Assembly: GCA_050575255.1 (NCBI GenBank)
Contig: JBNZDD010013726.1
Coordinates: forward strand, 9,001,408 to 9,065,407
Reading direction: 5' to 3'
Length of the DNA: 64,000 nucleotides
Source of the DNA: Harriotta raleighana
Taxonomy: Eukaryota
The notes beneath the pieces are model-generated. The model was given only the letters and a program-made list of their open reading frames with translations, made no database searches and was not told where the DNA came from. Positions 18,801 to 21,800 of the stretch are shown in pieces. Positions within the stretch are counted from its first letter, which is position 1. Each line of letters starts with the position of its first letter. The translations under genes and the position numbers were made by a program.

Positions 18801-21800
18801 CAGATTGAACAGTGAGTTGTAGTATCATATTAACTTCCTCATTTCTTAATTCACCATACTTTCTGAACTAAGTACTGGTAAATCTAAATTCACTTTATTT
18901 AAGGTTGGCGGCCTATTCTATGTTCTGTATGATAAATATGGGTAAAGTTTATTTTTGTAACTATTCTTCGGTATATTGAAGAATATACCCCCTTTGATGC
19001 CAATTTTGCTGAACGTTGCCTTGATGGCTTGTAAATTTGTCAGCTTTAAATAAAACGATAAAAGTCAATGAGGTGAAATGTTCAATTTCTCACATTTCCC
19101 AGAGACCTCATGGGTTATGCCAAATGGACTGCAATAGGGAGAGAGTAGAGATCAAAACTAAAAGGTAGCATTCCCAGCTGGAACACTGGCGTCCTTCCAA
19201 CTCTGCGTTATTTCAGATCGCTTATCAAAGGCTTAAGCAACCCTTCTCATCTGTGCAGAATTGCCCCTCTTACTACTTAATGGGCTTCAACAGGGCCTTA
19301 ACAAGATGAATTGCGTTTAATCAATCACTCACGCGGCATTCCAGGCGACAGGATTGGCAGCAGCAATGAATTTGTTGTTGCTATTGAACTATTCTCTGAG
19401 CTATTGTACTCAATTCTATATACAGTAAAACCCCGTTTATCCGGCGTCCTCAGTGGGGGGGCGTGGGTGGGTGGGGGGGGTGAGGGAGGTTGATTAATTG
19501 ACTGCGCGGGATAAACGGGCAGCAAAAGTTGCTGAAAACCCAACATAAAAAATTTACTTATTTTAAAACATGCCATGTTAATAATAGACTAAACAGTAAC
19601 AGAATACTGTATGGATACTTACCAACAAAGCATTCCAGCACACTCGGTAAAAAGCCACGTTCGTAAATTTAAATAAATGCTCATGCGCACGCATTTGCAC
19701 GCAAGCGTAAGTTGAGCAAACTCGCGATTGCTGGAATGGGGAATTGCCCCGGGAGACGGCCGAGCGATCGGGTCACGGATAAACAGGGTTTTACTGCACA
19801 ATGTCCACAATTTGTGGATTACAAGAAAATGGAGCATCAGATATTTAACCATATGACATTCTCTCCCCCCTTATCCTCCTCCCAACCCTGCAGTCTGCTC
19901 CACTAGCATGTCCGTTATACACATGTCTCTGTCACTTTGAAATTAATTTTGCAGAAAATGCTTCCGGATAATTTAAGAATAGCTAAACCAATATAATTAC
20001 ATTCTAGCATATATAAATAATTTGGCTGAATTTTCATAGGATTTATAAAGTGAAATGTGACTAGCTAATATTACAGATAGACATTTATAGCTATGATTAC
20101 ACTTGAAACAACGATGTAAATCCCTGCAGGGATAACATTTTCAACCCATCAGTTTACACACTCCTTTTCCTTTGTCTTCTTTGTCTCCTTTGTCTTCCAT
20201 GTCCTGCCTCCACCCCCTCTAATGTCCTTAAAAACCTCTCCCTCCAAACACTCCCCAGTTCTGACGAAGGGTCGTGGACCCGAAACGTTGATTCACTTTC
20301 CTTTCTCCATGGCTGCTGCCTACCTGCTGAGTTTCCCCAGCAACTTCTGTGTTTGTTTGATGTAAATGATCATAATCATCATAATCCTTGGAAAACACAT
20401 TGTGGGATCCGTCCAACTAATTTGGTTTTAGTGTCTGAATGAATGAAACCTTCTGGATTAACACTAAAAGTAAATGTTTTGTAGTTTATTGCAGTATTAC
20501 AAGATGAATATCAAACACGATCAACTCAACAGTGCAGCTTTAAGTGAGAGGAAAATTCTGTTAAAATTCTATTAATGCTACAGATAAACAAGGCAGCCAA
20601 TTGCGCACAGCAGTGTTCCCCCACACAGTCATGGTTCGAAATTTTTTGAGGGCTTATTGTTAGGCTTGTGGAGTAAGGAAACTTCCCCAAGGTTTTGCCC
20701 TGACTGGAATTGAACCCAGGTAAGGTGAGTACTCTAACCACTGAGCTATAGGAATCCACGGCTTCGGTACTCCCATGTGCCTCTGTTTACCTAGCAGTAA
20801 GTAAGAACGCAGTTGTTTGGCGATTGCTGGATCACTTTTCTGGGGGTAATAATGCCTTCAAAAAAAGATAAGAAGTTAGTCTCCATCTGTTTTAGTGGGA
20901 CACTGCTGAGTGCAATTGACTGCCGGTTTTCACCCATAAAATATACAGTCATTTCACTTCAGAGCATATTCTGTGAGGCGCTTTGAGATGCCTTGAAGAT
21001 GTGTTGTGGCTCTGTTTAAAAAAACAAGGATTATTATTATAATGTCTAATACTTTACTTTTGTTTCTTATTCACACATGTTTCTGGAAAGATTGGTAAGC
21101 TGTTGCATTACATACACTGTGAGTAGGAAAACAACAAGTCAATTTCCATCATGTATGTAACAGAATTTGTTCTGCAGCTCAACACATTTTTGTGTAAGGA
21201 AATAAAATGTGAACAAAGTCAGTATTGTATTAATATTCTGAAATCCTTTTATGCAGGTCCATGCATCTGTTTAAGCCATCCTCATAAAAATGAAATACAG
21301 TATAGATTGCAAAGAAATATTCCTTTAGGGTTTCATCATATTGTTCGCTAAGTGCTTTATAGCTACTTATAAGTGCTTTAGATGCAGAATACATAATCTT
21401 CCGCAGAGTTCGAGGAAATGTGAGAACGATTTTTATGTGCATATATAATATACACAATTTGTAAAAAGTCTTATCTTTCTTTGAAAAATATATATACGAT
21501 AATACTTCCTAAAAGAGTTGTGAGCACTGTTTCTGCCTCTGTTGATGCAAAACCTTGTACAAATACAGTATCATTAGACTTCCTGTAATAGAACCACCCA
21601 ATTAATTTAATTTCTTATTGGTGAATACTTCAGTAAAGAAGATGCATGCATAAGGACAAAAAGGTAGGTACCTGAAACAATTGGAATTACTTACAAGTTC
21701 ATTCCTTTCCTCGGACAGCAATGAATTACGATCCTCTAGCTTCCTGATGATTGCACTTAATTCAGCGATTTTAAGTTGGAATCGACGTGTATCTTTTTCA

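What the first reader, a model, noticed from the sequence alone, without database searches (positions are those of the whole stretch)
20257..20293. Intact minimal hammerhead ribozyme in an intronic Penelope-like repeat, antisense to JAKMIP3
Seen: AGTT CTGACGA A GGGTC GTG GACCC GAAA C GTT GATT. This supplies the CUGANGA and GAAA core boxes, a perfect 5-bp stem II, a self-complementary AACGUU in place of a looped stem III, an NUH site (GUU, predicted cut after 20289) and a 4-bp stem I (A-U, G-U, U-A, U-G). Established: Penelope-like retroelements and animal non-LTR retrozymes carry such minimal type I hammerheads, which typically need tandem or dimeric folding. Inference: this marks a self-cleaving-RNA-bearing repeat family in this genome that may be unannotated as such. 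It lies on the + strand, so the JAKMIP3 pre-mRNA carries the inactive complement.
Basis: partly seen in the sequence, partly recalled or inferred. Interest (0 to 1): 0.72.

Follow-up and report, generated by a model that had tools for sequence, protein, structure and literature searches.

The report
Penelope jumping-gene remnant with hammerhead
This is the leftover end of a very common, now broken jumping gene in a chimaera-like fish; it carries an already known kind of tiny self-cutting RNA motif that likely does nothing here, and the family's copies suggest the motif sits at the very start of the jumping gene's RNA and was likely copied uncut.

Summary
The motif is real (20257-20293) and fits the minimal hammerhead published for Penelope-like elements (PMC4209133) feature by feature. 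It lies in a 227-bp, 5'-truncated end repeat (pLTR) with a 9-bp target-site duplication, in a JAKMIP3 intron, antisense to the gene. The family has roughly 10,000 copies; longer ones carry RT, a Neptune-type zinc-finger linker and GIY-YIG. Cores decay like any CpG, 47 of 121 stay intact, and intact copies also lie sense to host exons, so this copy is ordinary and predicted inactive alone. The less ordinary part: copy starts pile up at the first base of stem I (339 genome-wide) and not at the cut site (26; controls 40 and 23). An extra G precedes 62 of 100 such starts, though long copies have C there (106 of 108), and TATA-like and initiator-like sequences lie at the right spacing. Likely reading: a capped transcript begins with the hammerhead, and uncut RNA was the template.

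The parts
20257..20293 (+). Minimal type I hammerhead motif; predicted cut between 20289 and 20290; stem I has one G-U where the family has G-C
20132..20358 (+). 5'-truncated 3' end (pLTR) of a Penelope-like element, positions -125 to +102 relative to 20257
   Evidence: 85-89% identity to the 3' ends of RT/GIY-YIG-bearing copies L034-L038
20113..20121 (+). Left copy of a 9-bp target-site duplication
   Evidence: exact match to 20359-20367
20359..20367 (+). Right copy of the 9-bp target-site duplication
20122..20131 (.). 10-bp self-complementary filler between the left duplication and the element's truncated 5' end
   Evidence: sequence
20227..20234 (+). TATA-like octamer (6 of 8 to the recalled consensus) starting 30 bases before 20257; inferred promoter part
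   Evidence: sequence; majority letters over -30..-23 in 70-74 copies; also present in the diverged subfamily L088
20255..20261 (+). Initiator-like heptamer (recalled consensus YYANWYY) with its A at 20257, the first base of stem I; inferred transcription start
   Evidence: sequence; breakpoint pile-up and extra G
20325..20358 (+). Predicted hairpin (20325-20329 with 20338-20342) and T/G-rich 3' end where many copies stop; inferred start of reverse transcription. This copy lacks the optional tail
   Evidence: analogy to PMC11167929
21692..21814 (-). JAKMIP3 exon upstream of the host intron (tblastn bounds)
17882..18028 (-). JAKMIP3 exon downstream of the host intron (tblastn bounds)

Best explanation
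This is a minimal hammerhead motif inside a short, truncated end piece of a Penelope-like retrotransposon (likely Neptune clade) inserted in a JAKMIP3 intron, antisense to the gene, and it is predicted to be inactive there because it has no partner copy. Shown: the motif, the element, the target-site duplication, the RT and GIY-YIG link, neutral-looking decay, and the pile-up of copy starts at the first base of stem I with an extra G. Inferred for the active parent: RNA polymerase II starts at the A that begins stem I, so a capped RNA opens with the hammerhead, runs through the ORF and ends in a second pLTR with a second hammerhead. Two motifs would pair through their ACGU palindromes, probably helped by the element's protein, and cut after GUU. 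Cutting would remove the cap at the 5' end and would sever the reverse-transcription start (+100 to +136) from the ORF at the 3' end, so it would act as an off-switch or trimming step rather than a step needed for jumping. New copies came from uncut RNA. Priming in the 5' pLTR would give the thousands of short stubs that begin at stem I; priming in the 3' pLTR with early stop would give copies like this one.
For: Family: 2785 first-look candidates; 3218 exact matches of a 24-letter 3' anchor; 18 of 60 ORF-retrieved copies match that anchor, giving about 10,700 copies (rough). Pfam on 8 fragments: RVT_1 E 9e-5 in 1 (below cut-off); GIY-YIG in 4 (one above cut-off). C-x4-C-x2-C linker and CCHH residues read by eye, the Neptune/Nematis mark in PMC8557442. 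Inverted 5' copies and a tail. L291 starts at +5 and runs from hammerhead through tail into the ORF start. Breakpoints: 34 of 95 within -4..+3 (offsets from 20257); 19 of 95 start further upstream; 3 of 95 near the cut. Genome-wide: 339 at the first base, 26 at the cut, 40 four bases before it, 23 four bases after it. Extra G: 62 of 100 listed (hand count; p 6e-15 against 0.25); long copies have C in 106 of 108 and G in 0; flanks unrelated, with duplications then G or TG in L204, L216, L205, L208. An extra G marks capping in full-length L1 insertions (PMC11702581). In Anolis the uncut RNA is the insertion substrate and cleavage needs the protein (PMC11167929). Monomer folds do not give the active form: core pairs with the palindrome, or stem I has P below 0.01 in this copy. 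Single motifs did not cleave in PMC4209133.
Against: No RNA data: no run was available to test start, cap or cleavage. The extra TG is also complementary to the bases after stem I, so a short fold-back could explain G and TG; a jump to the U-rich 3' end could too. T, not G, dominates at -3 (39 of 52 by hand), which fold-back does not predict, but cap plus untemplated A is not proven. Clear duplications were found in only 8 of 24 non-inverted +1 copies, and only 1 of the 8 had G alone as the extra. Only one copy (L291) shows the 5' hammerhead joined to the ORF, and it starts at +5. The D. virilis Penelope promoter is internal and TATA-less, with an intron ending at helix I, which differs from the layout inferred here. 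The TATA match is weak. No compensatory base changes were seen. The co-fold of two copies gave an extended duplex, not the active dimer, which the program cannot model. No tree was built for the clade.
Confidence: 0.8

Rival explanations
1. Same dead element, but the fixed start is not a capped transcription start. The RNA 5' end at stem I is made another way (splice acceptor, other processing), or reverse transcriptase stops there, and the extra G or TG comes from fold-back onto stem I or a template jump.
For: TG plus the first four bases extends stem I to 6 bp. The bases before the motif look like a branch point, pyrimidine tract and CAG acceptor (consensus recalled), and in D. virilis an intron ends at helix I. 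Many copies also start at +2 (41 of 100 by hand).
Against: No shared upstream exon among non-inverted copies. Starts peak at the first base, not after the CAG. The -3 base is T, not the G that fold-back needs. TATA-like and initiator-like spacing fits and is kept in a subfamily whose ORF is only about 69% identical.
Confidence: 0.2
2. The hammerhead routinely cuts the RNA that is copied (unit-length or circular templates, as proposed in PMC4209133), so a share of genomic copies start at the cut site.
For: The motif is nearly unchanged between subfamilies with about 69% ORF identity, which points to selection in source elements. About 21 of 26 cut-site matches are true junctions against about 12 of 23 four bases downstream (by eye; p 0.08). 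Earlier scan notes report a cut-site footprint in sharks.
Against: The control four bases upstream has 40 matches, about 25 of the 30 inspected being true junctions (by eye), so the cut site lies on a smooth decline. 3 of 95 near the cut in the sample. This copy itself spans the uncut site.
Confidence: 0.12
3. This copy is kept by the host to control JAKMIP3, or intact copies are tolerated only antisense to genes.
For: Core intact, own TATA-like and initiator-like sequences present, antisense position.
Against: 47 of 121 spanning copies keep all 11 core bases; core CpG bases decay like the others (G8 0.78, G12 0.74, all CpG 0.76). Core-intact copies lie sense to Pfam-confirmed exons in L113, L026 and L306. 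No partner motif in the window.
Confidence: 0.04
4. A non-LTR retrozyme: a tandem, non-coding repeat that makes circular RNA.
For: Same ribozyme type; retrozymes are reported in one chondrichthyan and are tied to PLE end repeats (bioRxiv 10.64898/2026.07.22.740005).
Against: No tandem array at the locus; single copy with a target-site duplication; continuous homology to RT/GIY-YIG copies.
Confidence: 0.04

Closest known systems
Minimal type I hammerheads (min-HHR) in pLTRs of metazoan Penelope-like elements (Cervera and De la Pena 2014, PMC4209133)
   Same: Core boxes, extra base between 9 and 10.1, G10.1-C11.1, two-base palindrome at 15.2-16.2, short helix I, GUU site (common in their alignment), place in the pLTR, mostly solo copies.
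   Different: No cartilaginous fish in the supplement part I read or searched (file 1 not searchable). Helix II is 5 bp, at the short end. Their model has cleaved or circular RNA as template; the copy ends here point to uncut RNA. They do not place the motif at the transcription start in the sections I read.
Neptune-clade EN+ Penelope-like elements (PMC8557442)
   Same: RT, then C-x4-C-x2-C linker, then GIY-YIG with CCHH; inverted 5'-truncated copies; optional tail.
   Different: All ORF copies I translated are broken; clade assigned by motif only, no tree.
Poseidon element PAc of Anolis carolinensis (Frangieh et al. 2024, PMC11167929)
   Same: Hammerhead at the pLTR/ORF junction, internal start of reverse transcription with two 3' end classes, uncut RNA as substrate.
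   Different: Different clade; there the ORF starts inside stem II, here a likely start codon lies well after the tail. They call the initiation loop AC-rich; the ends here are T/G-rich on the coding strand.
Animal non-LTR retrozymes (bioRxiv 10.64898/2026.07.22.740005)
   Same: Type I hammerhead of PLE origin, non-coding.
   Different: Defined by two or more tandem units with hammerheads; this copy is single.

Membership tests
PLE minimal hammerhead (min-HHR) | CUGANGA and GAAA boxes with UH site | tested here: met
PLE minimal hammerhead (min-HHR) | Extra base between 9 and 10.1; G10.1-C11.1 pair | tested here: met
   A20268; G20269 with C20281; feature
PLE minimal hammerhead (min-HHR) | Palindromic 15.2-16.2, no loop III | tested here: met
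   C20286, G20287; alignment
PLE minimal hammerhead (min-HHR) | Helix I and helix II can form | tested here: met
   4 bp (two G-U) and 5 bp; stem I is rarely formed in the predicted monomer ensemble of this copy
PLE minimal hammerhead (min-HHR) | Located in the pLTR of a PLE | tested here: met
PLE minimal hammerhead (min-HHR) | Compensatory changes in stems | tested here: inconclusive
   None seen; one family only, variation is mostly CpG decay; motif kept between subfamilies
PLE minimal hammerhead (min-HHR) | Self-cleavage as a dimer | not testable with these tools
   needs in vitro assay
Neptune-clade EN+ PLE | RT followed by C-terminal GIY-YIG on one strand | tested here: met
   (RT hit below Pfam cut-off; one GIY-YIG hit above)
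Neptune-clade EN+ PLE | CX2-5CxxC linker and CCHH motif | tested here: met
   read by eye in translations; definition
Neptune-clade EN+ PLE | pLTR, inverted 5'-truncated copies, optional tail | tested here: met
Neptune-clade EN+ PLE | RT phylogeny with Neptune references | not tested
   no reference set on hand
Non-LTR retrozyme | Two or more tandem units each with a hammerhead | tested here: not met
Rfam hammerhead families | Match to a curated model | tested here: not met
   no hit at gathering score or at E up to 10; it still works like a hammerhead by descriptor

The most novel reading that the evidence does not exclude
In this Penelope family the hammerhead is the first 37 bases of a capped transcript. 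Cleavage, allowed only when two copies meet, would remove the cap and cut off the priming site, making the ribozyme a copy-number-sensing off-switch. The thousands of solo hammerheads in animal genomes would then be complete cDNAs of the uncut 5' end, primed internally, not random truncations.
Probability: 0.4. Interest if true: 0.6.

Novelty: new member of a known kind. Interest (0 to 1): 0.3.

Why it matters
The copy itself does not matter: it is one of about 10,000 decaying remnants of a known class. The family-level pattern bears on an open question, what hammerheads do in Penelope elements (called unclear in PMC8557442). A fixed, apparently capped start at stem I and no trace at the cut site favour a regulatory or trimming role over a role in making the template, and give a precise 5' end for a simple test.

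Tried and rejected
Rfam: no hammerhead hit. The second core match at 14561-14589 has no stems and is at chance level. First Pfam scan of 7 short frames found nothing relevant. Sequencing runs: no RNA holder listed, so no reads were laid. Cut-site footprint: tested and not found. One search was meant as an offset control but also admits starts at +1 and +2, so I use it only to show that 954 copies lack the C before stem I, against 918 with CCC. The count of the -1 base failed (1 hit) and was redone. Long open frames reported (2284 and 639 aa) lie in stretches with many N; I saw no intact ORF. Antisense bias: 60 of 140 printed candidate exons were scanned; 11 had Pfam hits, 10 of them host-like in 9 loci; far too few for a rate. 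Tandem-looking pairs (L029/L030, L051-L053) were inspected; L029/L030 is a 100% identical local duplication. Lunse et al. 2017 is not held; I know it only through a review passage. No structure prediction, complex job or covariance model was run.

Full report
Observation. The motif stands at 20257-20293 as described. The bare core is at chance level, but the full descriptor gives 1 hit in the window and 0 in 60 simulated windows, and a 31-letter pattern has 658 exact matches in the genome with 0 for the reversed control. Rfam does not detect it. The host gene is JAKMIP3 on the minus strand; the best named hits are from Callorhinchus milii, so the animal is likely a chimaera. The motif lies between exons 21814-21692 and 18028-17882, intronic and antisense.

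The element. The motif is part of a 227-bp repeat, 20132-20358, flanked by an exact 9-bp duplication with a 10-bp palindromic filler at the 5' side. Longer copies extend 5' by varying lengths to about 3 kb. They carry RT (Pfam E 9e-5, below cut-off) and GIY-YIG fragments (4 of 8 fragments, one above cut-off) on the same strand, with the zinc-finger linker that PMC8557442 gives for Neptune and Nematis (passages). Inverted 5' copies and an optional tail are common. All ORFs I translated are broken. A 24-letter 3' anchor has 3218 exact matches; 18 of 60 ORF-retrieved copies match it, so the family has roughly 10,700 copies.

Decay. In 211 copies retrieved without using the hammerhead, the majority letters give a perfect motif with G-C in stem I; this copy has C>T at 20292. 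Core bases in CpG are kept in 74-78% of copies, like all CpG bases (76%). Non-CpG core bases are kept in 95.6%, against 93.7% just downstream. 47 of 121 spanning copies keep all 11 core bases. Median non-CpG divergence is 7.7%. Some copies may be counted twice under different loci. A subfamily with about 69% ORF identity has nearly the same motif and upstream sequence, which points to selection in source elements; no compensatory changes were seen.

Folding. As a monomer the core pairs with the stem III palindrome, and in this copy's longer context stem I has a probability below 0.01. There is no second intact motif in the window. PMC4209133 (Results and Discussion read; supplement file 2 part 2 of 3 read and the file searched; file 1 not searchable) reports no cleavage by single motifs and low cleavage by dimers.

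Where copies begin. I took the first 100 listed of the 3218 anchor matches; 98 distinct copies were recovered and 95 could be scored (3 dropped as too short or N). 34 start within -4..+3 of 20257, 19 start further upstream, 3 start near the cut. The sample comes from small contigs and holds a few duplicated loci. Genome-wide patterns with three non-matching bases upstream give 339 starts at the first base, 26 at the cut, 40 four bases before the cut and 23 four bases after. The patterns differ in tolerance, so only large ratios count. By eye about 21 of 26, 25 of 30 inspected and 12 of 23 are true junctions. There is no step at the cut. 954 copies lack the C before stem I and 918 carry CCC.

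The junction. Of the 100 starts listed, 62 have G just before the motif (hand count; 18 of the first 30 loci; p 6e-15 and 5e-5 against 0.25). Long copies have C there in 106 of 108 and never G. Non-inverted copies have unrelated flanks, and several show a duplication followed by G or TG; 11 loci were picked mostly from G-bearing rows and are not used for the rate. PMC11702581 (passages) ties an extra G in full-length L1 insertions to the cap. A TATA-like octamer starts at -30 and an initiator-like heptamer is centred on 20257 (consensus recalled). L291 runs from +5 through the tail into the ORF start. Against this: TG also extends stem I, so fold-back is a rival, though -3 is mostly T; the D. 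virilis promoter is internal and TATA-less (PMC2377424, passages); and no RNA data were on hand.

Mechanism. Shown: element, motif, ends, junction letters. Inferred: a capped RNA starts with the hammerhead and ends in a second pLTR; two motifs pair through ACGU and cut slowly, probably with the protein's help, as found for Anolis PAc (PMC11167929, main text read). A cut would remove the cap and separate the priming site from the ORF, so inserted copies come from uncut RNA. This copy spans the uncut site and stops at -125. It keeps the inferred promoter, so it could give an antisense RNA, but alone it is predicted not to cut, and the JAKMIP3 pre-mRNA holds only the complement.

Orientation. Among core-intact copies beside identified host exons, L113, L026 and L306 are sense; L022 and the window are antisense. 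This is too few for a rate, but no strict antisense rule holds.

Literature and earlier notes. The class is known (PMC6765202 and PMC6155905 passages; bioRxiv 10.64898/2026.07.22.740005 part 1 of 5 and passages, its supplements not seen and possibly naming this family). Searches listed no paper that places a PLE hammerhead at a capped start or describes it in a chimaera; subscription papers, Repbase and Lunse 2017 are not held, so this is weak. The scan has reported this class many times, in this genome too, and noted the fixed start; a word search for the cap reading found nothing. Shark notes of a cut-site footprint prompted the controls above; I tested only this family, where it is absent.

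Verdict. Real, correctly named, and a new member of a known kind. Interest 0.3, held up by a testable family-level lead.

Noticed in passing
window 20283-20300, minus strand: On the JAKMIP3 strand the family majority reads like a 5' splice site (GTGAGT, consensus recalled); the C>T at 20292 changes its fifth base in this copy. 10 of 182 copies share the change, so it may be chance.
   Followed up: no
window 5452-5653: A second remnant of the same family: head-to-head pair with a broken hammerhead core and the tail.
   Followed up: partly
window 19423-19796: About 375 bp bounded by 21-bp inverted repeats starting CAGTA, read by eye; looks like a small DNA transposon.
   Followed up: no
window 29983-30054 (-): Rfam tRNA hit, 36 bits, with several broken pairs; similar stretches at 20642-20751 and elsewhere suggest a tRNA-derived SINE.
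   Followed up: no
window 40933-41325 (-): Open frame that reads like the end of a LINE reverse transcriptase (likeness recalled).
   Followed up: no
L282, L285, L291 near position 1200: A pyrimidine run and TAG lie just before the likely ORF start codon, and a four-codon upstream frame starts at +53; a 5' UTR intron, as in D. virilis Penelope, is possible.
   Followed up: no
L121, L159, L166, L170, L229, L236: In head-to-head stubs the inverted arm often also ends at or near the first base of stem I, more support for a fixed RNA 5' end.
   Followed up: partly
window 30150-30498 and 43236-43506: Two-copy tandem duplications of 173 and 137 bp, 93% and 98% alike.
   Followed up: no
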